A stretch of DNA of 64,000 nt. Origin: a candidate division CPR3 bacterium GWF2_35_18 (GTDB lineage Bacteria; Patescibacteriota; CPR3; GWF2-35-18). The DNA lies in NCBI GenBank assembly GCA_001771135.1, contig MESW01000002.1, positions 5,315 to 69,314 on the forward strand, read 5' to 3'. The notes below the pieces were generated by a model. It ran no database searches, had not been told where the DNA came from, and saw only the letters and a list, made by a program, of their open reading frames with translations. Shown piece by piece: positions 16,784-63,825 of the stretch (positions within the stretch are counted from its first letter, which is position 1; every line of letters begins with the position of its first letter). The translations under genes and the position numbers were made by a program.

Positions 16784-17004
16784 TCAATTCAAATTATTTT
16801 GCATAATAAAAGAGAGGGCTAGGGGAGTATGTGGGTGCGAGTGAAAAAAACATACTGCCCTAGGGGGCAAAGAGAGAAAGAAGCATATAGATACGGTTTT
16901 AAATTATAGGGTCAGATGTACGTATCTATCTGAGAAGTTTTTGTCTAAACTATTTTTATTTAGGAAACTTCTTATTAAATGCATGAAGGATAAAAGATCC
17001 ACAA

Positions 17005-17062
17005 AAAGGGGTCTGCGACATTGTGTGTCGTAGATGCGTGGTCAACAGACCCCCTTTTGCGT
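17005..17062 (-). terminator. Rho-independent terminator for the minus-strand operon 18221->17069
   Basis: Read on the minus strand: CAAAAGGGGGTCTG ...loop... CAGACCCCTTTTTG, an 11-12 bp stem followed by a T-run, immediately 3' of the stop at 17069. Confidence 0.6.
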
Positions 17063-17068
17063 GTGTGG

Positions 17069-17362
17069 CTACATTTGATCCAGGTTGAGGATCACCACGA
17101 TGATGCTCGAGAGCGTCTCGCGGAGATACTTTTCCCAGGACAAAGGATACCGATTGGTGTAACCCCAGCACTGAGCAACTTCAACTGGACCGATATATTG
17201 GTCAGCTTGAGCTATCAGTTCGCCAAGGTCTTTCCTGGGGATCCTCTTCACAAGTTGTTTAACCACTTCTTCGGGGTTACCGATTCCATGGTCTTGCGTC
17301 TTGTTGACTTCTTTTGCAACCTTCCGAAGAAGTTTGCATAGAGTCATTTTGTTTGTAGCCAT
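17069..17362 (-). CDS. Hypothetical protein (97 aa) in GC-rich island 1
   Basis: Strong RBS GGAGGTG before the ATG. About 50 % GC, versus about 33 % in the surrounding sequence. No recognisable family. Confidence 0.55.
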   Translation of the reverse strand: MATNKMTLCKLLRKVAKEVNKTQDHGIGNPEEVVKQLVKRIPRKDLGELIAQADQYIGPVEVAQCWGYTNRYPLSWEKYLRETLSSIIVVILNLDQM

Positions 17363-17627
17363 GAGCCACCTCCTTTGGAGCCACTGTTTGGCACAGTGCC
17401 AGATGAGTCCCGGGCCACCGGAAAGGACTCAGCCCTACGAAGCGATTAACAAGGTCAAAGAAATTGGTGATATATGACCTTTCGCTGTCCGGTTTAGAGG
17501 TGGTGGAGAAAAAACCTAGCTCTACGTGGTATCATGGCCGACGGAATTTTTCTACCGCCAGGCTGGTGGTCCGTTTGAGCGTACCCATACTTATCCGCAA
17601 CAGAGCTAGGGATTGGAAAAACAGGAT

Positions 17628-18221
17628 CTAGGTGTTTTCGAATGGATTCTGCCAACCAAGACCTTTGGCATTTAATGAATTTAAAATAGTATCGTAAGCC
17701 TTACGTGTAAGTCCTTGCTTTCCGTCAAGACAACCTTCAGCTTCTCCATCGGTAGCGGCCTCGAGCGTGTGGCAAATAGAAATTGCTTGATTTATGGGTA
17801 GGTGAAGAGTGATTATTTGACCGAAGAATTTTTCGATGTCAGCGGGATTTGAGTAATGCTCATCTTTCAGAGCTAGGTACAAAATCGCGGAACCCGTTTC
17901 GTCGCTCCAGAGAACAATCTCCAACCGAAAATCGTTCCGTCCAGATTCGTTTGTGAAAACCGCGATTCTAGTTGTGTATCCAGTTTTGCGAACGACATCA
18001 AATGCTTCACGTACGACTTGATTGAAAACCATCATCGTAAAATCGTGAATTCCGATGTAGTCGTCGGCGGCTGGGGTGCCGCAAAAGAGTTGGAAGACAA
18101 CCTGACCATGCTCAGTATAGACCGGCAAGAAGTTGCCTTTGATTCCACTTGTTCGCAATCCGTGCATGCCCAGAATTTCTTGGGCTTTAGTTAAAAGGAT
18201 GGTTTTAGGTTTTGTGTTCAT
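17628..18221 (-). CDS. Hypothetical protein (197 aa; 212 aa if the upstream ATG at 18266 is used) in GC-rich island 1
   Basis: GGAGGA RBS before the ATG at 18221. GC-rich codon usage. No recognisable motif. Confidence 0.55.
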   Translation of the reverse strand: MNTKPKTILLTKAQEILGMHGLRTSGIKGNFLPVYTEHGQVVFQLFCGTPAADDYIGIHDFTMMVFNQVVREAFDVVRKTGYTTRIAVFTNESGRNDFRLEIVLWSDETGSAILYLALKDEHYSNPADIEKFFGQIITLHLPINQAISICHTLEAATDGEAEGCLDGKQGLTRKAYDTILNSLNAKGLGWQNPFENT

Positions 18222-18623
18222 AGGTCCTCCTCGAACCTGTCCTGCTTCCTCGGCAGGAGTGAACATTTGAATGGTTGGTTGAATTGAATTGGTTGGTGTT
18301 AAACGAACGAATTCTCGAATTTTTCGATAGACCTTCCTTTCTTTTTCTTTGATTTTGGATAGGCGAGCTTGTGAGCTCGAATCTTTTTGGCTTTATGCCA
18401 ATGGGATTAGTGAAGGAAGAAGAGTAATTTCTTTCCTCGCTATTCCCATTGGGAAAAGCCATTTTCAAGGCAATAACCTTGATGCATTATGCTTCAGTTT
18501 TTAAAGAACAATGATGATTTTTACCACTAAAAAATAAATGGAAAAACCACAAATAATGGCGGGAAGTATATCATATATTGATGTGAATATCAAAACTATG
18601 GGATTGAAGTTGGAATTCTGAAA

Positions 18624-36099: not shown

Positions 36100-36322
36100 T
36101 TTTTATCCTTTCATTTAATTGAAACCAAAATATATCATAAAACAGGGGAAACAGTAAACTGTTCCTGACTGCTTGCCTTTTGGGTCGATTTTTAGTACAA
36201 TCGCGTGGTAATAGCCCCCCTTTTGAGGGGTCTTTTTGTATAGATCGCACTTTTAAATCATGAAATTATAATTTCTTCCAAAAAAGTGAATGATTGATTA
36301 GAAAAAACGGAGAAGCTCTTGC

Positions 36323-36366
36323 GGGAGCAAGATGAAAACAATTTTTATTGTTTTCATCTTGCTCCC
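36323..36366. repeat. Perfect 19-bp stem hairpin (GGGAGCAAGATGAAAACAA / TTGTTTTCATCTTGCTCCC) at the left edge of GC-rich island 2
   Basis: Read directly. A 6-nt loop. Lies between divergent genes and is followed by GC-rich sequence. Confidence 0.7.
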
Positions 36367-36522
36367 CCTCAGAGCAGCGCAAAAGCGCATTTTACCCATC
36401 CGTTTTAGTTCCGTTTTGCTAAAGCAAATTCGGAGAAGGAGTTGATCTATCAGAAAATTGAATAAACTGTTTTCAACCATCAATCAATTTAACCAATCCA
36501 ACCAATTTTATGGGAGAAAATT

Positions 36523-37086
36523 ATGAAACCTCAATCGTATCGATTTACTCAACCACGTCAAACCGTGGGTTATGCCGCATGTCAGGACGACCGCGTGCAG
36601 GCCGATGTTCAAGTGATTTTAGCTGAAATGGGCTTAGCCCTTGGACATTACTGTGCGATTAACCTGGCTGGTGGCGCTGGTGTTCCGGATCTTATTGATC
36701 GTTTGCTTCCCGAACTGGAAGTTGATCACGAGCACCACAATCCCCAGGGTTGGTTACTGATCGGCCACGAGGAATGCGCCGCCGGTGCCAATCTAGATAC
36801 TCTGTTTACCAATCTGGGACAGATTAAGCAACTCTTTCCGGATATGGTGGGTAAGCTTGTGATTGTTTGGCAGTTCAAGGTCGTTGGTTACCAGGAGAAG
36901 GAGTTTTGGGGTCATGTGTACCTCAATGTAGACGCCGAAACCTCGGTCACCTGGTACATTGTAGTTGGCGATGCGAAGGAGAGCGCGAAAGCGTTCGTAC
37001 TTACAATGACTGGAAAAGATCTTCCCGGTCCTCATATTCTCTCCCGTGACTATACTGATCATGATGTGACGGTGATCGTCGCCTAA
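36523..37086 (+). CDS. Hypothetical Cys/His-rich protein (187 aa) in GC-rich island 2
   Basis: About 52 % GC with GC-rich third positions. RBS GGGAGA. No family recognised. Confidence 0.55.
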   Translation: MKPQSYRFTQPRQTVGYAACQDDRVQADVQVILAEMGLALGHYCAINLAGGAGVPDLIDRLLPELEVDHEHHNPQGWLLIGHEECAAGANLDTLFTNLGQIKQLFPDMVGKLVIVWQFKVVGYQEKEFWGHVYLNVDAETSVTWYIVVGDAKESAKAFVLTMTGKDLPGPHILSRDYTDHDVTVIVA

Positions 37087-37174
37087 AACAATTTCTCAAT
37101 CATGTGGCGACCGTCTGTCGCAAGACCTGTCCTTCTGGACGGTCGCCACATCAATTTGTATTTTGGAGGAACCT

Positions 37175-37417
37175 ATGGAAACTGAAGTTGTTACCCTTGC
37201 CGGGTATCGGATAACCGTTACGGACAATGGTGAGAAAACCAATCGACTAACCCGCTATACTTGGAAAGTTTACGATCCAAGTGGTGAACCTATTGGTAGA
37301 TTCACTGCAAACTTACAGAGCAATAAATTGCATGAGTTCAAAGAAGTACTTTCTACACGTTTTGAAGATCAACCATCTTTGTTACAGCAGTACGTTTCAC
37401 TGGCGGCCGCTCTGTAA
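37175..37417 (+). CDS. Hypothetical protein (80 aa) in GC-rich island 2
   Basis: RBS TTGGAGGAA before the ATG at 37175 (track start 37163 is a TTG). Confidence 0.5.
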   Translation: METEVVTLAGYRITVTDNGEKTNRLTRYTWKVYDPSGEPIGRFTANLQSNKLHEFKEVLSTRFEDQPSLLQQYVSLAAAL

Positions 37418-37432
37418 ACAGGAAGGAGGATT

Positions 37433-37549
37433 ATGAACGTCGGTTGGGCAATTGGTGTCGGAGCACTAATTTGGGCTATTGCTAGTCAGATGACACAGGT
37501 TTGTTGGGCAATTGCTCAAATTCAAAAGAACAAGAACAATCGTTCGTAA
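37433..37549 (+). CDS. Candidate small hydrophobic peptide (38 aa, MNVGWAIGVGALIWAIASQMTQVCWAIAQIQKNKNNRS)
   Basis: Strong RBS AGGAAGGAGGA 4 nt upstream. Three WAI(G/A) repeats spaced 9-11 residues apart. Third gene of island 2. Confidence 0.4.
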   Translation: MNVGWAIGVGALIWAIASQMTQVCWAIAQIQKNKNNRS

Positions 37550-37747
37550 GACAACAGAAGAAAGGGAGAGAGATTCCAAGGAAGTGAAACATTGATCGTG
37601 CGCCTCTGGTGCATAACATCGCTGCTTCCCTTCCTTTCTTCTTCCTCGGAATAAAATAATTTTTTCCCGAGAAAGAAGAATTTTTTGCAGCGTTTTATAT
37701 AAGCAAGATATTTGAGCTTTGAGTTTTTTTATCATATACTAATCTAT

Positions 37748-54171: not shown

Positions 54172-54958
54172 AGAAAATAAAAGAATCGGAACTACGAAAA
54201 AGAATTGAAACGACAGAAATAGATGTGGAAGAAGAGGTACGTGTTTAGAACTTTAAAAAAAGAATATTTCGTTAATCTCCGGAAATAATCCGGAAAATTT
54301 TAAATTCTTCTTAATGAAGGAAGATTGCAGTTACTGCAAGGAAGTAAACTGGAAGCTATTGATTTAGTATCTAGTTCGCTTTCTTGCAGGAAGTTGAGGT
54401 CTGTTAGGAAAATCTTTCCGCTTTCATAAGTCGCAAGCGCAGAAAGGATCTGCAGATTTTCAAACCAGAATACTCAGACGGTTGGGTAATAGTCAGGTTG
54501 ACCCTGTGAATCCAAACGAAGTACTGCAAAAAGTGTCGTTCCCGGTTTTTCGGGCCTGAAGGGTTGTACCCCGTAGGCGCCTGGGTAGGACCCAATTATA
54601 GGTCCGCCTAACCGGAAAAAGACCTCTTCCTTTGGAAGGGGCATATCGTGCCTGTCAGGTAATAGGCCTTGCAGTTTTTGTAGAATTTATCCGAAGCTGC
54701 TTTCAGAGCAGTCTTAGATAAGCGGATAGAGGAAGCAAAAATAAAGAGGCTGAAAAACTTGAAGGGCGAAATTGGACAATTTCTTTCAACTCCCCAAACC
54801 GAAAGGGTTAGTAACTTGAGAGGGAACGGTCTCCATTTGTTTTTCTGGTTCCAGTCCAGCTGCCGAATACAGTAGGCAAAAGATGAAAGGACTCAGACTG
54901 AACTTTCAAGAGTGAAACACTCTCTTAGGCAAGGGGTAGTATTCAAGGAGAATGATAT

Positions 54959-56341
54959 ATGGAGACTAAAACCTCCACCCAGAGCCGCAAGGGGCTCTAT
55001 AATATCTTTGCGTCCGTTATCGTAGCCCTGATGCTCGTTGCCGTTTTCTTCGGCTTCGTTGGCACTGCGGCCGCTCAGGAGTCCGTTCCTGACTACCAGC
55101 CCGTGGTTGACCCTTATCCGGTCACCGTGGGCGTTACCACCGCGATCAGCCTCAGCCCGGCACCGACCGCGACGGCCGACATCCACTGGACGATCAACGC
55201 CTCTGATGGTAGTCTCGTGCTGGATACCACCGAGTTCACGGTGACGCATGTGTTCACCAATGCCGGCGATTACACCGTTGGTGTGACGATCAGCGACACG
55301 AATGGCGTGTATGTGAATGCCTGGTTGCTGAACGTGGAAGAGCCGGTTTTGACACCTGCTGCTGCCTTGACCAACCTGTTGACCGCTGTGATGGCGCCTG
55401 CAAGCCCTGATAAAGCCGCTGATGTAGCTGAAGCTGTTGCCGATGTTCAGCGCGCTCTGGGCGTGGTTGTTCGCGGCGCCGTCCAGTCCAATGAAGGCGG
55501 TTCGATCGAACTTCGCCCTGTCCAGCCGATTGCGGCAATGAGTGAAGAAGCTCGCGCTTTGGCTATGGACACTGCTGCTGGCACCGATCTGCACTTCGCA
55601 TGGGGTGCTGGATGGCACAATCATCAGGCCGATTTGGGCGCTGGGACTCAACTGTTGAGCGGCGTCTTCTTCGACTCTGACGATCCGGCCTATTTCGGCA
55701 CCACCGAACCGATCTCTGGCGGCCTCTGGGTGTCTTCGATGTACACCCCCAACGTTAGCCTGGAAACGGCCGAATATACCACGACCTTCACTTCTACCCA
55801 GTGGGTAGACAGCGATGGCAACGGTATGTTTGACCTTCTGGCGGTTGGTAGCCCCTGGGATGGTTCTGTCGTCACCATGAGCCTCGATTACGAAGGCGTA
55901 TACACCGAGACCTGGAGCGTCCAGATCGGTATGGAACCGAAACTGATTAGCACCGAAGGCACCAGCCCTGCACCGGCGACCGCCGATGCTTTCCGCACCA
56001 GCGCTGCTGCTGATACATACCCATTCGTACCCGGTCAGGGTTGGGATGTAGCTGCCAATACGGCTTACACGGACACCGTCTTCTACGGCGCTTACTTCGG
56101 TGGCGCTGATTTTGGCGGCGTCTGCAATGACCACTGCGTGGTTAGCTATGCTGGGCGGAGCTATGAATCGACCGATGCTGATGGCAACGGGACGTACGAT
56201 TTCTTCCTGCCCGGCGCTGGTTCTGCCGAAATCGAAGGCCCTGGGGCTTGGGAATTCACCGTCACCGATGACGATGGCAATACCGAGACCTGGATCTTCA
56301 TCCTGGGCGCCACTCCTCAGATCGTCCCCGCTGGCGAGTAA
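54959..56341 (+). CDS. GC-rich (about 58 % GC) secreted protein with Ig/PKD-like and DxDGNG calcium-binding-like repeats
   Basis: AAGGAGA RBS. Signal anchor with an AAAQE cleavage-like site. DSDGNGMFD and DADGNGTYD motifs. Third codon positions are GC-rich, unlike neighbouring genes. Confidence 0.65.
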   Translation: METKTSTQSRKGLYNIFASVIVALMLVAVFFGFVGTAAAQESVPDYQPVVDPYPVTVGVTTAISLSPAPTATADIHWTINASDGSLVLDTTEFTVTHVFTNAGDYTVGVTISDTNGVYVNAWLLNVEEPVLTPAAALTNLLTAVMAPASPDKAADVAEAVADVQRALGVVVRGAVQSNEGGSIELRPVQPIAAMSEEARALAMDTAAGTDLHFAWGAGWHNHQADLGAGTQLLSGVFFDSDDPAYFGTTEPISGGLWVSSMYTPNVSLETAEYTTTFTSTQWVDSDGNGMFDLLAVGSPWDGSVVTMSLDYEGVYTETWSVQIGMEPKLISTEGTSPAPATADAFRTSAAADTYPFVPGQGWDVAANTAYTDTVFYGAYFGGADFGGVCNDHCVVSYAGRSYESTDADGNGTYDFFLPGAGSAEIEGPGAWEFTVTDDDGNTETWIFILGATPQIVPAGE

Positions 56342-56407
56342 CAATCAAAACTATGCTTCAACCCTGAGGCTGTCTGCAGAAATGCGGATAATAAATAACT
56401 AATGGGT

Positions 56408-56480
56408 GGAAACCTGCCGGCCTCCTGGCCTGCGCGTTTGTACGTCCTGATCTGCGCTCTTTGTGCGCCGGCAGGTTTCC
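56408..56480 (+). terminator. Long GC-rich hairpin downstream of the 460-aa gene (putative terminator)
   Basis: GGAAACCTGCCGGC ... GCCGGCAGGTTTCC, a perfect 14-bp inverted repeat with a 45-nt loop, followed by TTGTCTTTTC. Confidence 0.5.
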
Positions 56481-56890
56481 TTGTCTTTTCATCTTAGTCT
56501 GGTTTTATCTTGACCAGTCCCAAAGCCTATCATTAAGTTGATAGATCCTCAGGAAAACAAGATAAGTGAAGGATTTTTCCTTCCTGGAGTTATAGAGAAA
56601 ATAAAGAATCTATAGCAAGACTCCAAGATGAGGCAATTCCTCATCGAGCTAGTTTGCATGAAAATGCAGTTAAAATTGGTTTGGTCATTGTGAAGGTCTG
56701 TTGTTTTTGTATTGAAGATACATTTATTGTCACCCTAAAAGTGACCTGTCCTTATCATCTTCAAAACACCAACCAACAAAACAACACAATCATCAACCCA
56801 ATCTAGCTTCCCTCTTGTGCTTAGCACCTGATGAAGGCTTGGGAAGATCAAGCCGAAAGAGGAAAGTTAAATTATATATATTAAATCAAA

Positions 56891-56918
56891 AGCCACCCTG
56901 AAAATGGGTGGTTTTTTT
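56891..56918 (+). terminator. Rho-independent terminator that ends an ORF-less transcribed region (about 56540-56918)
   Basis: GCCACCC-TGAAAAT-GGGTGGT followed by TTTTTTT. Confidence 0.65.
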
Positions 56919-56934: not shown

Positions 56935-57038
56935 TGTCATGCTGAACGAAGTGAAGCATCTAGGTCTAAAGACCGCAGTATTGGTAACTGTGCGTTCTGC
57001 CTTTGGCAGAACTAGATCCTTCGTTAAACTCAGGATGA
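56935..57038. repeat. Palindromic repeat family, copy B (GTCATGCTGAACGAAG ... CTTCGTTAAACTCAGGATGAC) with two internal small hairpins
   Basis: Read directly. Sits just downstream of the GC-rich block. Its right arm abuts or overlaps the 3' end of the GIY-YIG gene. Confidence 0.6.
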
Positions 57039-57341
57039 CATAAATAAATTATTAAAATTAGGATTGATAGTCTTTATAAGGCTAATCTTTTTCTCCCTTT
57101 TCCAACCTTTGATTTTCTTTTCTACTTCTATTGCTTCTGTAGGAGAATTAAATTCTTCCATCCAAATTAATTTATATAGTTTGTATTTCTTAGAGAAGGA
57201 ACTTTTTATTATACCTTTTGTATGTTCTTCAATTCTTCTTTCTAAATCATTGGTTATTCCGGTATATAACACAGAATTTGTATGATTAGTAATAATATAA
57301 ACATACCAACTGAAGTTATTCATATTATTTAAGAATATCAT
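57030..57341 (-). CDS. Stand-alone GIY-YIG nuclease domain protein
   Basis: WYVYIITNHTNSVLYTGITNDLERRIEEH (GIY...YIG...R...E motifs). The true start may be the internal ATG at 57323 (MNNFSWYVYII). Confidence 0.72.
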   Translation of the reverse strand: MIFLNNMNNFSWYVYIITNHTNSVLYTGITNDLERRIEEHTKGIIKSSFSKKYKLYKLIWMEEFNSPTEAIEVEKKIKGWKREKKISLIKTINPNFNNLFMSS

Positions 57342-59985: not shown

Positions 59986-60373
59986 TATTTATATTCCTTA
60001 TTCGGCTTGAACTTCCCAAGCCAGCGGTTCAATTACTTGAACGACTTTGTTTAGATGAGTCTAAACAATCTTCAGGTGCTACTTTGCCCCGCCAAAGGCG
60101 GGGGCACATAAGGAAAGGTAGGGAGAGGAGATAGAGTTTGTGAGGTTGGTGTGTGAAGATGTGAAGAAAAGACCAAGATTTGGTCTCACAAATTGTTCTA
60201 TCTCTCTCCCTAGCGGGTTCTTTAATCGCCAAAAGGCGACTTTCGGTGCCCACGGGGTTTATTCCGTGTTACATTGTTCGGGTTTAGACCCGTGGGCACT
60301 TTTTAGCGGGGAACCAAGTCATGCGGTTCAAGGCATGTCTTTTTTAACACTATGCCCGCTTTCGAGCGACTTT

Positions 60374-61687
60374 TTATGGCGCGAGATTAACGTGCCAGCG
60401 CTCGATGATATTTCCGACTTTGATCTCTACCGTCCAGGGGGCGGTGCTTGAGCAACCGGCATCAAAGATGCCGTTGCCATCATCGTCGGTTGCCGTAAGG
60501 CTTTCATCATTGCAAGTGATTTGCATATCGGCGTTATCCACGCTGATTGACAGAAATTCGACATTCAGCGCGAACAAGCCAAAGAGGAAGTCTTCCTGTT
60601 CTGGATTGCTCCAGCCCTGACCGGTGGTGAGAGTGATCGTCCCGCGATCGATGACCGTGGGAGGAGTGTAGTCTTTGTATGCCAGGGGGATAAATATCTG
60701 GTACGTTGTGGGCGCTGGTGAGATGACCGTGACGGTCATGGTGTCACTGACAACATTTCCTGCGACGTTGGTGGCAGCAACCTCAATAACTTTTTCACCC
60801 GGAGTTTCCCAGACGAGGGCTTGTTGTACGCCTAACGACAGTCCGTAAAACTCAATCTCTCCGAGGTCAGTGGCCGTGAAGTGGTAGGTGACGTTGTTAG
60901 TTGCGGTGACGTTCGTCATCGCTGTTAACGTGATTTCTTCACCAATATATCCATTGAGAGGGCCTGCAATTTGCACCCATGTGACGGGCACTATCTGGTC
61001 TGAAATGATTATTTGATTGTAATCCTGGAGACGATACTCAGCCCAAGCAATCATTCCGACGATTTCGGTTTGGCCAGTTTCAGTGAGCACCATAGTGTCT
61101 GTCAGAGTGAAAACTTCATTCGGGATCAGAATTCGATCTCCGCATTGTCCCCACGGAGCCCGTAAGGATACTGTTGCCGTCATGTTGCCGATGTTAGTGA
61201 TGCTGAACTCAACATCGAAGGGTTGATTCACCTGGACTTCTGCAGGGGAATTCACGTACACAGTGAAGAAGGCGTCGTTGCGAACGATTTTAGCCGGAGT
61301 TTCGTTAGTGACGGTGAATGTCCATGTTTCGGTGATGATTCCGTCAGTAATGATGTAGAGATCGTTGATAGGACTCAAGAAAGCCTGGTCGTTATCCATG
61401 CTGAGTGTCCAGGTATAGCCATCAGAGCGGGTTACGATTCCTTCACCATAGGCGTGGATTCCGTCTTGATTGTCCGCATAGAGATGGTTAATTGGGCTGC
61501 CGGCTTCAAAACCTTCGTTTAAAAGATCCATCTCAGGGTTCAGGATGGCTTCTACGGTGATAGTATTTACAGTTTGTGCAGCAGTCGCATTCTGCGTATC
61601 GGCAAAGCTCAATAGAGCAATGACAGCTACGAGCGCGATAAGGATAGAAATTGCCGGGGTTAAGCGGCGGATAGCATAAGCGTTCAC
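60374..61687 (-). CDS. GC-rich secreted protein (437 aa) with a C-terminal DDDGNG Ca-binding-like module; paralogous in part to 54959..56341
   Basis: GTG start with an AAGGAGA RBS 7 nt upstream. Signal peptide ending ATAAQT. The C-terminus (TATDDDGNGIFD...WTVEIKVG...ERWHVNL) resembles TDADGNGTYDFF...WEFTVTDDDGNTETWIFIL of the 460-aa protein. Confidence 0.62.
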   Translation of the reverse strand: MNAYAIRRLTPAISILIALVAVIALLSFADTQNATAAQTVNTITVEAILNPEMDLLNEGFEAGSPINHLYADNQDGIHAYGEGIVTRSDGYTWTLSMDNDQAFLSPINDLYIITDGIITETWTFTVTNETPAKIVRNDAFFTVYVNSPAEVQVNQPFDVEFSITNIGNMTATVSLRAPWGQCGDRILIPNEVFTLTDTMVLTETGQTEIVGMIAWAEYRLQDYNQIIISDQIVPVTWVQIAGPLNGYIGEEITLTAMTNVTATNNVTYHFTATDLGEIEFYGLSLGVQQALVWETPGEKVIEVAATNVAGNVVSDTMTVTVISPAPTTYQIFIPLAYKDYTPPTVIDRGTITLTTGQGWSNPEQEDFLFGLFALNVEFLSISVDNADMQITCNDESLTATDDDGNGIFDAGCSSTAPWTVEIKVGNIIERWHVNLAP

Positions 61688-61999
61688 AGTTTTTCTCCTT
61701 CAGAAAAATTGTATCGGAATTTTTCCGCGAACCAATGGTTGGCGGATTGACTAATAGAGGAAAATAGTTGATTTTTAGCCTGAAGAGAAATAGTTCCTCT
61801 TACTTTACAAGGCTTTTTAGGTTGACTGCTTTTAAGCAGATTGATATTTGAACGCTTCGTGCAATACTCCACTAGGGCTTTCTTTGCGCTAGTGTTGCTC
61901 TTTGATTTAATTCCTAAATCCCAGGTTTCCAATCTGAGAGAGGATCAAAGAGGATTATTTCTTGCAGGAAGAAGTCTTGGGGACAAGGCATTTTCATAT

Positions 62000-62097
62000 G
62001 TCATCCTGAACGAATATTAAGGATCTAGAAACTATTAGTTTCGTAAGAATTCGCTTTGCTAGATTCTTCATTAACATTCAGAATGACAAAAGGGAAA
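62000..62097. repeat. Palindromic repeat family, copy C (GTCATCCTGAACGAATATTAAGGATCTAG ... CTAGATTCTTCATTAACATTCAGAATGAC)
   Basis: Read directly. Has a central AAACTATTAGTTT mini-hairpin. Lies 300 bp beyond the 5' end of the GC-rich minus-strand gene. Confidence 0.6.
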
Positions 62098-62976
62098 ACT
62101 ATTTATTCCCATGATTTCTCCCTGCAAGTATTTGTCTCAATCCTTTTTAAAGTACAAAATCTAAATGTCTTCTTCCGTTTCTTTATTTTCTTACTTTGTT
62201 TTTCTGTAGTTTCGATGGTTTTTAGCTAGAAGAAGGGGAGAGATTTTGTCTGGAGAGATTTTGATCTCTCCACTTCTTTTTAACCAAAAAACCGCCTCTG
62301 GATGGGAGACGGTCAGTGTACCAAAATACTACTTTAAAGCAGTATTTTAAGTCAATTGTCTCTCTCCAGACATATTCAGTTTGTTATTATGTATAATAGC
62401 ACAAATTAAGGGAAAAGTCAATACTATAGGATTAAATATGTGTTTTCTTTAAATTTGGAGAAAGATTAAGAAAAGGGGAAGAGGAGAGGGAAGAGCGAAA
62501 GAAATAAAAGTGGAAACAAGGATAGTTTCAAAAGAGCCAAGGCTCTCCTTTCTATGCCGGACCGTGGTGGTCTTTTGGCTTTTGAAAGTAGCTCCTTGAG
62601 TCTACACTTTTTATCTTTCAGTCTTCCCGTCCACCAAATTGGTGAACTACCGTTTGTATATATTTTAGTTGGATACGGTGGTCCAACCTCCAGAGGGGGG
62701 AGGGAATGGCAAGCTGATCAGGCACACATGGATTTTGTCCACGTTCGCGCGACTGTCATTCTCCTCCCCACTTGGAGTCAAAAATTGTGAGGTGTTTGTG
62801 CCACCAGAATTATCTACAGTCTCCTCAGGCTGTAAAGTTCAAAAGTGACACGAATCCCTATTCGTCCAACAATTTCTTAGACGAATTCGTCTTTCTCTTT
62901 TATCTTCTTTTTCTACCGAGCGGTCCGAGCAGGGTAAATCAATCAGAGAGAAAGGTCTCCCAATCACCTCAAAGCT

Positions 62977-63390
62977 TTACGGCCTTGGCCCGATAGTGGG
63001 CAGAGCAGGTGTTTGGGTGGGGGTGGGGGTCGGTGCGCCAATCAGGGTGTTGCCTGCAGCAGCAACTGTAGCTTTAGCGTTTGTGACGCCATTTGCTGCT
63101 TGTGTTGCCGTCGCCTGAGCGTTGACCAGATTATTGGCCGCTTGTGTAGCAGCATTCTGCTTGTTCTGCAGATTCTGGATAGCGCTTGCCTGATTAGCTT
63201 CAGCGTCTTTGAGTGCGTCAACTGCACCATAAACGCCAGCCGAATCATCTGTCGCGGGGGTCGCGGTCTCTTTGACGGTTATTTCTACTGGAATCCAGTC
63301 CCATGTTTCTGTGGGAAGGTAGTAGTATAACGCCGTCACGAGGACGACTAACCCGAGCAATGCCAATGCATAAAGCCCAAGTTTCTTCAC
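62977..63390 (-). CDS. GC-rich small membrane-anchored Ala/Thr/Gln/Asn-rich protein (137 aa)
   Basis: GTG start with an AAAGGAGA RBS. N-terminal TM helix. Low-complexity AANNLVNAQATATQAANG repeats. Pro/Thr-rich C-terminus. Confidence 0.5.
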   Translation of the reverse strand: MKKLGLYALALLGLVVLVTALYYYLPTETWDWIPVEITVKETATPATDDSAGVYGAVDALKDAEANQASAIQNLQNKQNAATQAANNLVNAQATATQAANGVTNAKATVAAAGNTLIGAPTPTPTQTPALPTIGPRP

Positions 63391-63825
63391 GTTATTCTCC
63401 TTTCTCCATTGTGACGCCTTTAATGCGCGTCAGAATTTGAATTTACTTCCTCTCGGACCAGAGGAAGACGGGGGTTTTCCCCTTGATTTTCCGGTAAGGG
63501 AGAAAGGTTGTAAAAGCAACCCTTTTTCCTTACCAGAAAGAGAAAGGAGGAGGAATTTTTCCATCTTTTGATGGTAAATAATAAGGAACTTCTCCATAAA
63601 GTCGAAGTATAGTGTTGTTATTCTTCGAGCGAAGTCGAGAAGTACCATGATAATAGGTGCTAGATTGTTTTTCCTTTTCAGGCTTAAAGGAGAGGAGAAT
63701 CTGTGATTCGTTGGAGTGAATTTTAAACTCTCCTCACCTTGAGTCAAAAAAGGAATATTTTACTATTATAAATATGGGGAAAAGACTTTAAGACAAGCTT
63801 ATTATCTCTCTCCATATACAAAAAA

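What the first reader, a model, noticed from the sequence alone, without database searches (positions are those of the whole stretch)
17005..18480. GC-rich island 1: a two-gene minus-strand operon with a long structured intergenic spacer
A 197-aa ORF and a 97-aa ORF, both with strong RBS, are separated by a 265-nt GC-rich spacer full of hairpins (GAGTCC...GGACTC, CCGG-TGGC-CCGG, AAGGTCA...TGACCTT). A strong terminator closes the unit. Neither protein has a recognisable motif. The overall layout (a roughly 190-aa protein followed by a roughly 90-aa protein) mirrors island 2.
Basis: seen in the sequence. Interest (0 to 1): 0.6.

Follow-up and report, generated by a model that had tools for sequence, protein, structure and literature searches.

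The report
Orphan-gene islet with conserved RNA hairpins
This GC-rich patch in an AT-rich CPR3 bacterial genome is built around one rare protein gene of unknown function flanked by conserved RNA hairpins, and the second gene and most of the "spacer" are a later, species-specific addition, so it is not a conserved two-gene cassette.

Summary
A 45-50% GC islet sits in a ~33% GC genome of a candidate division CPR3 bacterium. It carries two minus-strand ORFs with strong ribosome-binding sites, a 265-nt spacer and a strong terminator.

ORF A (197 aa) belongs to a tiny uncharacterised protein family, with about 6 relatives among 1.8 billion representative proteins. In four of the five other lineages found, the gene stands alone, with its own terminator straight after the stop codon.

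ORF B (97 aa) has no relative anywhere. It and the 3' 150 nt of the spacer are missing from the closest related locus.

The 5' ~100 nt of the spacer is a conserved branched hairpin followed by U6, which I read as ORF A's own leaky terminator.

The clearest new feature lies upstream. Two tandem stem-loops display an invariant GAGGA, and the second one is the ribosome-binding site. Their stems covary across 4-6 lineages.

Non-coding blocks 3' of the islet are 85-96% identical to the relative, although the proteins share only 53%. This is unexplained.

Island 2 is not homologous. No Pfam, Rfam, defence, phage or plasmid match was found, and the protein functions remain unknown.

The parts
18565..18593 (-). 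Promoter-like site: TTGATA, 17 nt, TGnTATACT (extended -10). Uncertain.
   Evidence: 10 of 12 matches, TG present. A strain variant, L001, lacks 56 nt that include the -10 element. The real start of transcription is not established.
18393..18457 (-). Long imperfect hairpin in the 5' leader (29-nt arms, 79% complementary). A small hairpin CGAGCT/AGCTCG follows at 18364-18379.
   Evidence: Not seen conserved in other loci.
18265..18303 (-). 39-nt G-free, CA-rich tract (CACCAACCAATTCAATTCAACCAACC...) just upstream of the twin hairpins.
   Evidence: Similar tracts precede the hairpins in L009 and L012. Such tracts are not rare in the window, so their significance is unproven.
18241..18257 (-). Leader hairpin 1: stem CCTGC/GCAGG, loop CGAGGAA.
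   Evidence: Folds alone. In 4 distinct lineages 83% of cells pair, 5 of 6 pairs change on both sides, and 0 of 500 shuffles reach the covariation score.
18222..18238 (-). Leader hairpin 2: stem AGGT(TC)/(GG)ACCT with GAGGA(GG) in the loop. This is the Shine-Dalgarno sequence of ORF A, and the stem abuts the ATG.
   Evidence: In 6 lineages 93% of cells pair, 5 of 5 pairs change on both sides, and 0 of 500 shuffles reach the score.
17628..18221 (-). ORF A, 197 aa. Member of a rare uncharacterised alpha/beta protein family, with conserved core at residues ~1-130.
   Evidence: relatives at E = 8e-49, 5e-22, 3e-6, 6e-5, 1e-3. Alignment. The start at 18221 is supported by the homologues and by the leader hairpins. 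The database version of 212 aa (P0001) is probably over-extended.
17509..17610 (-). Element 1: branched hairpin closed by CCTAGCTCTG/(C)AGAGCTAGG, then U6. This is the first part of the 'spacer' and is read as ORF A's terminator-like hairpin.
   Evidence: 78.6% identical to L008 1295-1405. The same architecture is predicted independently for both copies. Two compensatory pairs. Every other homologue has a terminator at this position.
17363..17508 (-). Lineage-specific 3' part of the spacer. It has three hairpins (17481-17451, 17431-17406, ~17400-17381) enclosed by pairing of 17506-17496 with the ORF B Shine-Dalgarno sequence (17375-17367).
   Evidence: z = -2.11. Absent from L008. Pairing of the ribosome-binding site is no better than with a shuffled upstream sequence.
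17069..17362 (-). ORF B, 97 aa, an orphan ORF. Its stop codon lies in the conserved block GTAGCCACA.
   Evidence: A GGAGG-N6-ATG context is rare in the window, and elsewhere, outside known ORFs, it precedes only 2-59 codons. Length alone is not significant.
16978..17072 (-). Element 2: strong terminator hairpin (AAAAGGGGGTCTG...CAGACCCCTTTTT), conserved.
   Evidence: z = -4.25. 85% identical to L008 1412-1509.
16888..16977 (-). AT-rich ~90-nt segment present in the window but not in L008. It separates Element 2 from block 3.
16808..16887 (-). Block 3: 80-nt non-coding block with the hairpin CUAGGGCAGUAUGU/ACAUACUCCCCUAG (or the alternative TGCCC/GGGCA plus a U-run), flanked by CU-rich runs.
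   Evidence: 96% identical to L008 1509-1589. z = -3.74. No Rfam match.

Best explanation
Island 1 is a compositionally foreign islet built around one self-contained gene, ORF A.

Shown:
- ORF A belongs to a very small uncharacterised protein family. Its members sit as GC-rich single-gene islets in several AT-rich genomes, each in a different neighbourhood.
- The family carries its own cis-elements. The leader ends in two tandem stem-loops, each displaying GAGGA. The second is the ribosome-binding site in the window, L008, L009 and L012.
- A terminator-type hairpin follows straight after the stop codon. In the window this hairpin is the branched Element 1 plus U6, which forms the first ~100 nt of the 'spacer'.

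Inferred:
- The twin GAGGA loops control ribosome loading on ORF A. They may act as exposed or standby Shine-Dalgarno sites in an otherwise structured GC-rich leader. Or they may be the paired binding site of a dimeric GGA-loop-binding repressor, either CsrA-like or ORF A itself.
- ORF B and the 3' 150 nt of the spacer are a lineage-specific insertion between ORF A's terminator hairpin and a second, strong terminator.
- ORF B is probably a young orphan gene expressed at a lower level, by read-through of the weak branched terminator.

The biochemical role of either protein is not known. ORF A looks cytoplasmic (no signal peptide or membrane segment) and has few conserved polar residues. I favour a binding or regulatory role over an enzyme.
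For: Family and context:
- HMMER against 1.84 billion representatives gave 5 relatives, with one more found.
- The relatives stand alone next to unrelated genes: lysS and NUDIX, a copper-resistance operon, typA. Each has a hairpin plus U-run straight after the stop, z = -3.1 to -5.4.
- The homologue's position-3 GC is 0.44-0.50, against 0.23-0.32 for its neighbours, in three AT-rich genomes.

Twin hairpins:
- The GAGGA loops are invariant and the stems differ in every lineage. 83% and 93% of cells pair. 5 of 6 and 5 of 5 pairs change on both sides. 0 of 500 shuffles reach the score, and slid controls collapse.
- Each RNA predicts the hairpins when folded alone.
- In L010 and L011 a third GGAGGAG serves as the ribosome-binding site, yet both loops are kept.
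- The tandem arrangement occurs once in 64 kb.

Element 1: 78.6% identity with L008, the same fold in both copies and 2 compensatory pairs.

ORF B segment: in L008, Element 1 abuts Element 2 with only 6 nt between them.
Against: - No transcript data exist. The promoter, read-through at Element 1 and translation of ORF B are all untested.
- Element 1 rests on only two sequences. Its 78-nt branched interior is atypical for an intrinsic terminator, and L008 lacks the U-run.
- With two taxa, loss of ORF B in L008 cannot be told from gain in the window. The polarity rests on the more distant single-gene loci.
- A 5-nt GAGGA loop is a poor geometry for full pairing with the anti-Shine-Dalgarno sequence, which weakens the 'exposed ribosome-binding site' reading.
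- No csrA gene was seen in the 64 kb or in the fetched loci.
- The ORF A model is weak (pLDDT 63) and has no fold match.
- 'Foreign origin' rests on composition only. No integrase, flanking repeats or empty site were found.
Confidence: 0.55

Rival explanations
1. A conserved two-gene functional cassette, such as toxin-antitoxin, a defence pair, or an enzyme with its partner. The spacer would be a dedicated regulatory RNA coupling the two genes.
For: Same strand, strong ribosome-binding sites on both ORFs, and one strong terminator after ORF B. No convincing promoter lies in the spacer.
Against: ORF B has no homologue and is missing from the closest locus. ORF A is monocistronic in 4 other loci and has different partners in L008. 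There are no PADLOC hits. The conserved part of the spacer lies next to ORF A, not next to ORF B.
Confidence: 0.07
2. ORF B is not a gene. The 440-nt segment between Element 1 and Element 2 would be non-coding inserted DNA or RNA, and the open frame would be an accident of GC-rich sequence.
For: An open frame of at least 97 codons occurs in 82% of composition-matched random islets. An antisense ORF of 106 aa overlaps it. There is no homologue anywhere. Its stop codon is supplied by the conserved flanking block. The only variant seen differs by one residue.
Against: AAGGAGGT, 6 nt, ATG is a near-perfect initiation site. Only 28 GGAGG-plus-start sites exist in 64 kb, and those outside known ORFs are followed by 2-59 codons. 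The codon-position GC pattern looks coding: 0.55, 0.32, 0.54.
Confidence: 0.25
3. The islet is a non-autonomous mobile cassette. The conserved non-coding elements (Element 1, Element 2, block 3) would be DNA-level recombination or recognition sites, integron-attC-like or MITE-like, at which variable genes are swapped in and out. They would not be RNA elements.
For: Variable genes sit on either side of Element 1: two membrane ORFs before it in L008, ORF B after it in the window. The non-coding blocks are 85-96% identical while the protein is only 53% identical. The flanking host genes differ. Position-3 GC is foreign. A tRNA-like remnant lies next to the L009 copy (ARAGORN calls no tRNA there).
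Against: No integrase, transposase or recombinase lies within +/-6 kb (Pfam labels). No flanking direct repeats were found. Element 1 has no GTTRRRY-type core sites. Exact 20- and 21-mers of the blocks are absent from the viral contigs, and the block 3 20-mer is absent from the JGI metagenome contigs. Only one copy exists in the 64 kb.
Confidence: 0.15
4. The GC-rich islet is chiefly a large structured non-coding RNA gene, and the ORFs are incidental.
For: GC-rich islets in AT-rich genomes are a classic signature of structured RNA. The 311-nt 3' region of L008 folds with z = -4.68.
Against: ORF A has protein-level homologues at E = 8e-49 down to 1e-3, and the DNA of the ORF is far less conserved (72% identical over only 67 nt) than the non-coding blocks. 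The codon-position pattern is coding. There is no Rfam match.
Confidence: 0.03

Closest known systems
CsrA/RsmA-type translational operators (GGA motifs in hairpin loops, one overlapping the Shine-Dalgarno sequence)
   Same: There are two stem-loops with an invariant (A)GGA-containing loop. They lie 19-23 nt apart, and the 3' one overlaps the ribosome-binding site. By my recollection of the CsrA literature, this is the geometry bridged by a CsrA dimer. csrA is reported as expressed in groundwater Patescibacteria (PMC9938205).
   Different: The loops read GAGGA, not the CANGGANG-type consensus. The motif travels with one gene family and is not spread over many genes: a single tandem in 64 kb. 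No csrA was seen in the sequence available. Binding was not tested.
Standby or exposed Shine-Dalgarno sites, and SD-like 5' mRNA stabilisers (STAB-SD of Bacillus cryIIIA; from memory)
   Same: An SD-like sequence lies upstream of the real ribosome-binding site and is not used for initiation. It sits in a structured leader and could recruit 30S subunits or protect the mRNA.
   Different: Here the SD-like sequences sit in tight 5-7-nt loops of covarying hairpins, immediately before the start codon rather than near the 5' end. No stability or toeprint data exist.
Intrinsic (Rho-independent) terminators and leaky intercistronic terminators
   Same: Element 2 is a textbook example: a long G+C stem followed by a U-run. 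Element 1 has a 9-10-bp closing stem followed by U6. It occupies the position where every homologue has a terminator.
   Different: Element 1 encloses a 78-nt branched interior with two conserved inner hairpins, and its L008 copy has no U-run. It may do more than terminate, or something else, such as 3' protection or protein binding.
Integron gene cassettes with attC sites
   Same: Short, compositionally odd gene units are followed by an imperfect palindromic element, with gene content varying next to it.
   Different: No integrase is nearby and there are no R'/R'' core sites. ORF A has its own promoter-like site and leader. Only a single copy was found.
Island 2 of the same window (36300-37600)
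   Same: It is a GC-rich islet with GGAGG ribosome-binding sites, a long leader with a long hairpin and a CA-rich tract, and a ~190-aa ORF followed by a ~80-aa ORF.
   Different: The proteins share no detectable similarity. Island 2 has three ORFs with short spacers, no twin GAGGA hairpins and no Element 1-like sequence.

Membership tests
Any Rfam RNA family (spacer, leader, 3' blocks) | Covariance-model score at or above the gathering threshold | tested here: not met
   There are no matches at gathering thresholds. In E-value mode only chance-level hits appear (miRNA and lncRNA models, bit scores far below the cut-offs).
Any Pfam / NCBIfam / PHROG / PADLOC protein family (ORF A, ORF B) | Profile-HMM match above the curated cut-off | tested here: not met
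   plus on all 6 family members. The best E-values are 0.09-0.2, far below the cut-offs.
CsrA/RsmA-regulated leader | At least two GGA motifs in hairpin loops, one overlapping the Shine-Dalgarno sequence, at 10-60 nt spacing | tested here: met
   The GAGGA loops are 19-23 nt apart, and the second is the ribosome-binding site in the window, L008, L009 and L012.
CsrA/RsmA-regulated leader | A csrA gene in the same genome and binding of CsrA to the leader | not testable with these tools
   tblastn found no csrA in the 64-kb window or the fetched loci. The rest of the genome was not available, and binding needs an experiment.
Intrinsic terminator (Element 2, 17059-17002) | G+C-rich stem-loop immediately followed by a U-run | tested here: met
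   Stem of ~16 pairs, then UUUUU, z = -4.25.
Intrinsic terminator (Element 1, 17610-17509) | Compact G+C-rich stem-loop immediately followed by a U-run | tested here: inconclusive
   A 9-10-bp closing stem plus U6 is present in the window. The interior is 78 nt and branched, the consensus scan did not call it, and L008 lacks the U-run.
Integron cassette / attC | Integron integrase nearby; attC with inverse core RYYYAAC and core GTTRRRY at its ends | tested here: not met
   No integrase or recombinase Pfam label on any gene within +/-6 kb. Read directly from the sequence, the ends of Element 1 are CCCTAGCTCTG/CAGAGCTAGG, with no GTTRRRY.
Toxin-antitoxin or two-gene defence cassette | Two tightly linked genes that co-occur across genomes | tested here: not met
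   The genes are 265 nt apart. ORF B is absent from every other ORF A locus. No PADLOC match.
Same family as island 2 | Detectable protein or DNA similarity | tested here: not met
   BLASTP E = 4.9 for the large ORFs and no alignment for the small ones. No DNA match elsewhere in the window.

The most novel reading that the evidence does not exclude
ORF A could be a sequence-specific RNA-binding protein that represses its own translation. It would bridge the twin GAGGA loops of its leader. The whole unit (leader operator, gene, branched 3' hairpin and the near-invariant 3' blocks, which could be a 3'-derived small RNA with CU-rich anti-Shine-Dalgarno stretches) would then be a self-contained module that moves between CPR genomes and picks up small accessory genes such as ORF B.
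Probability: 0.12. Interest if true: 0.6.

Novelty: new variant of a known kind. Interest (0 to 1): 0.35.

Why it matters
CPR/Patescibacteria genomes are full of unannotated genes, and very little is known about how they regulate expression.

This locus offers a small, well-defined test case. It holds a protein family absent from Pfam. It has a leader motif supported by covariation (twin GAGGA-loop hairpins) that is absent from Rfam. It has 3' non-coding blocks conserved far better than the adjacent protein.

If the hairpins prove to be an operator for a CsrA-like protein or for ORF A itself, that would be one of the first cis-regulatory RNA motifs defined in CPR bacteria.

If they are not, the finding is an ordinary orphan-gene islet. 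The practical lesson is that the apparent 'operon with a structured spacer' is a gene, its terminator, and a later insertion.

Tried and rejected
1. Known families. Pfam, PHROGs, PADLOC and NCBIfam gave nothing for either protein or for the whole family. Rfam gave nothing at gathering or E-value thresholds, and no tRNA or tmRNA was called.

2. Homology with island 2: none.

4. Phage or plasmid origin. tblastn against phages (both ORFs) and plasmids (ORF A), and a viral-contig scan with the family profile, were all negative.

5. More copies of the non-coding elements. Exact-pattern scans of viral contigs and of JGI metagenome contigs found none. A protein-pattern scan of the metagenome contigs found none. 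The genome scan with the neighbouring deacetylase found only a non-syntenic Saccharibacteria locus, so no 'empty site' could be examined.

6. Sequestration of the ORF B ribosome-binding site by an upstream anti-SD stretch. It is predicted with pairing probability 0.77, but shuffled upstream sequences give 0.73 +/- 0.16, so it is not significant.

7. A shared CA-rich leader motif (CACCAACCAA) linking the islets. Three matches were found against 3.3 expected, and G-free CA-rich tracts are common in this genome.

8. GAGGA-loop hairpins as a genome-wide regulon signal. There are 16 in the window against 10.9 +/- 3.4 expected, so no enrichment. Only the tandem pair stands out.

9. Flanking direct repeats: only chance-level 10-12-mers.

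10. Population variation as a test of coding constraint. All contigs are 100% identical, so the test is uninformative.

11. A covariance model of the twin hairpins. It was abandoned because MAFFT put the linker gap inside loop 1. The hairpins were scored separately instead.
Full report
**Source and observation**

The window comes from a candidate division CPR3 bacterium. These are the Rifle groundwater genomes GWF2_35_18 and GWE2_35_7, identified from exact protein matches. Background GC is about 33%.

Between about 17000 and 18300 the GC content rises to 43-51%. The two minus-strand ORFs are as described:
- ORF A runs 18221..17628 (197 aa), with GAGGAGG upstream.
- ORF B runs 17362..17069 (97 aa), with AAGGAGGT upstream.
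- A 265-nt spacer (17627..17363) separates them.
- A long terminator hairpin at 17059-17002 closes the unit.

All of them lie in the 3' half of the spacer. Folding energy alone is unimpressive: z = -1.66 for the spacer, -1.15 for its 5' half and -2.11 for its 3' half.

The islet is not an assembly artefact. Contigs from NCBI, ENA, Logan and JGI assemblies carry it with 100% identical sequence and junctions.

**Are the ORFs genes?**

A stop-free run of at least 197 codons arises in only 1.6% of composition-matched random islets. A run of at least 97 codons arises in 82%. ORF A is therefore supported by its length, and ORF B is not.

Both ORFs show a coding-like GC pattern by codon position. Both have a position-3 GC (0.44 and 0.54) far above host genes (0.21-0.31).

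A full GGAGG followed by a start codon occurs only 28 times in the 64 kb. It begins only one clearly host gene (26159). Several other sites fall inside longer ORFs. All the island 1 and island 2 ORFs use it. Elsewhere, outside known ORFs, it is followed by 2-59 codons. This is the best argument that ORF B is translated.

No family library recognises either protein.

**Homologues of ORF A**

The word-indexed search found only the protein itself. An exhaustive HMMER pass over 1.84 billion representatives found five relatives:
- P0009: 53% identity, E = 8e-49.
- P0010: 41% identity, E = 5e-22.
- P0011, P0012 and P0013: E = 3e-6 to 1e-3.

A profile search added P0014. The alignment shows a conserved N-terminal core of about 130 residues, with motifs such as FQLF.G.PAA, RIAVFRNE.GRNDY.LE[VI]VL and L.LKL.D.HYDR. 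The C-termini vary. ORF A is therefore a real but very rare protein family.

Homologues and the leader structure support the 197-aa start. The database entry of 212 aa is probably too long.

AlphaFold2 with the shallow alignment gave pLDDT 63, and 70-84 over the core, which is a helix followed by a mostly antiparallel sheet. Foldseek against PDB and BFVD returned nothing significant.

**Genomic context of the family**

- L009: the homologue stands alone between lysS (with a tRNA-like remnant) and a NUDIX gene.
- L012 and L013: it stands alone beside a copper-resistance operon.
- L010 and L011: it stands alone upstream of typA.
- L008, the closest relative: it is followed by two small membrane-protein ORFs unrelated to ORF B.

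Each stand-alone homologue has a hairpin plus U-run immediately after its stop codon, z = -3.1 to -5.4.

In three AT-rich genomes (the window, L008 and L012) the gene is a GC-rich islet, with position-3 GC 0.44-0.50 against 0.23-0.32 for its neighbours. The ancestral unit is therefore a single gene with its own signals. It looks either horizontally mobile or compositionally constrained.

No hit was found in phage, plasmid or viral collections. No recombinase lies nearby, and there are no flanking repeats.

**What the spacer is**

BLASTN of the islet against L008 shows three non-coding blocks that are better conserved than the coding DNA:
- Window 17624-17515 matches L008 1295-1405 at 78.6%.
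- Window 17072-16978 matches L008 1412-1509 at 85%.
- Window 16887-16808 matches L008 1509-1589 at 96%.
- ORF A DNA matches only at 72% over 67 nt.

The first block (Element 1, 17610-17515) is a 9-10-bp stem, CCTAGCTCTG/(C)AGAGCTAGG. It encloses two inner hairpins and an AUG/CAU helix. Both copies predict the same architecture when folded separately. The first inner hairpin carries two compensatory changes, GG..CC to AA..UU.

In the window a U6 run follows the element. It sits exactly where the other homologues have their terminators. In L008 it follows the last ORF of the operon.

In L008, Element 1 is separated from Element 2 by only 6 nt. In the window, 440 nt intervene. These are the 3' 150 nt of the 'spacer' plus ORF B, and ORF B's stop codon falls in the conserved GTAGCCACA block.

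The spacer is therefore composite. It consists of ORF A's terminator-like hairpin plus the private leader of a lineage-specific ORF.

The predicted pairing of ORF B's ribosome-binding site with 17506-17496 is no stronger than with shuffled upstream sequence.

**The leader**

Every ORF A homologue with upstream sequence carries two stem-loops just before the start codon.

In the window, hairpin 1 is 18257-18241, with stem CCTGC/GCAGG and loop CGAGGAA. Hairpin 2 is 18238-18222, with GAGGA(GG) in the loop and its 3' arm touching the ATG.

The loops are invariant, and the stems differ in every lineage:
- Hairpin 1: 83% of cells pair, 5 of 6 pairs change on both sides, and 0 of 500 shuffles reach the covariation score.
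- Hairpin 2: 93% of cells pair, 5 of 5 pairs change on both sides, and 0 of 500 shuffles reach the score. Slid controls drop to 17-47% paired.

RNAalifold found hairpin 2 on its own. Single-sequence folds predict both hairpins in the window, L009, L012 and L010.

In L010 and L011 both loops are retained even though a third GGAGGAG acts as the ribosome-binding site. The loops are therefore conserved for more than being that site.

Single GAGGA-loop hairpins are not enriched in the window (16 against 10.9 +/- 3.4). The tandem is unique there.

The arrangement resembles CsrA/RsmA operators: (A)GGA in loops, 19-23 nt apart, the 3' one on the ribosome-binding site. csrA is reported as expressed in groundwater Patescibacteria (PMC9938205), but none is present in the sequence I could reach.

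Three readings remain open: exposed or standby ribosome-binding sites, a CsrA-like repressor, or autoregulation by ORF A. The first is the most conservative. The tight 5-nt loops and the L010/L011 arrangement lean towards a trans-acting factor.

**Unexplained**

Element 2 and block 3 are 85-96% identical between two organisms whose ORF A proteins share 53%. Their flanking genes also differ: Yip1 in the window, GIY-YIG and msrA in L008.

The contiguous 311-nt non-coding tail of L008 is strongly structured, z = -4.68. Block 3 alone gives z = -3.74. Block 3 is flanked by CU-rich runs that are complementary to Shine-Dalgarno sequences.

It could be a 3'-derived small RNA, a recognition site for recombination, or the trace of a recent exchange. 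Exact 20- and 21-mers of these elements are absent from the viral contigs, and the block 3 20-mer is absent from the JGI metagenome contigs, so I could not enlarge the sample.

**Verdict**

What is there is a compositionally foreign islet. It holds a self-contained gene of a rare unknown family with conserved RNA elements at both ends: twin GAGGA hairpins upstream and a branched terminator-like hairpin downstream. A species-specific orphan ORF is inserted before a second terminator.

It is not a conserved two-gene system, not related to island 2, and not a member of any curated protein or RNA family. The protein functions remain unknown.

Interest is moderate to low. The twin-hairpin motif and the hyper-conserved 3' blocks are the parts worth following up.

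Noticed in passing
window 36300-37600; 54300-56900; 60000-61800; 62700-63600: There are four further GC-rich islets (41-58% GC) in the same 64 kb. Islets 3-5 encode secreted or membrane-anchored proteins: a 460-aa protein with a PKD domain, a 437-aa protein and a 137-aa protein. They have very long structured untranslated regions, for example ~650 nt upstream of 54959. None shares DNA with island 1. Together with the GGAGG usage, this suggests that a sizeable fraction of this CPR3 genome consists of foreign or specially expressed islets.
   Followed up: partly
window 56935-57045 and 62010-62090; L008 1720-1808 and 2112-2199: The small GIY-YIG gene (57030-57341, minus strand) next to islet 3 is adjacent to a palindromic repeat (tgtcatgctgaacgaag...cttcgttaaactcaggatgaca). 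A similar palindrome lies upstream of islet 4. In L008 the GIY-YIG gene next to the ORF A islet is bracketed by ~88-nt direct repeats (GTAATGCTTCGA...GAGTCGAAGGGTTTCC). This may be a mobile GIY-YIG-associated repeat element at islet borders.
   Followed up: no
window 18528-18583 versus L001 5736-5740: The strain variant in GCA_000991025.1 lacks 56 nt of the intergenic region upstream of island 1. The missing stretch includes the -10 element of the best promoter-like site. Either the promoter lies elsewhere or expression of the islet differs between strains.
   Followed up: partly
L010 340-508 and L011 100-266: The ~130-nt leaders of two diverged ORF A homologues (P0013 and P0014) are almost identical from the TATAAT box onward. 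They contain further conserved structure (GCCATTCGAGATGGTACAGCTCGCAAGGGC...) upstream of the twin hairpins.
   Followed up: no
L009 405-482: A tRNA-like sequence lies directly upstream of the ORF A homologue P0012. It has D, anticodon (CAC, Val) and T arms but a non-pairing acceptor stem, and ARAGORN does not call it. It could be the remnant of integration at a tRNA gene.
   Followed up: partly
window 18221 versus 18266: Public annotations give ORF A as 212 aa (P0001). Homologues and the conserved leader hairpins, which would fall inside that N-terminal extension, indicate the 197-aa start.
   Followed up: yes
window 37104-37152 and 37433-37549: Island 2 has a 13-bp perfect inverted repeat (TGTGGCGACCGTC...GACGGTCGCCACA) between its first two ORFs. 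It also has a third ORF of 38 aa, hydrophobic, with a GGAGG ribosome-binding site. It is therefore a three-gene unit. Its 187-aa protein has a sub-threshold hit to Pro_CA_2 (E = 0.007).
   Followed up: partly
window 17868-17877 and 17601-17610: The 10-mer forming the 5' arm of Element 1 (CCTAGCTCTG on the minus strand) is repeated inside ORF A. The 3' arm could therefore pair with either copy. About two such 10-mer repeats are expected by chance in 2 kb, so this is probably coincidence.
   Followed up: partly
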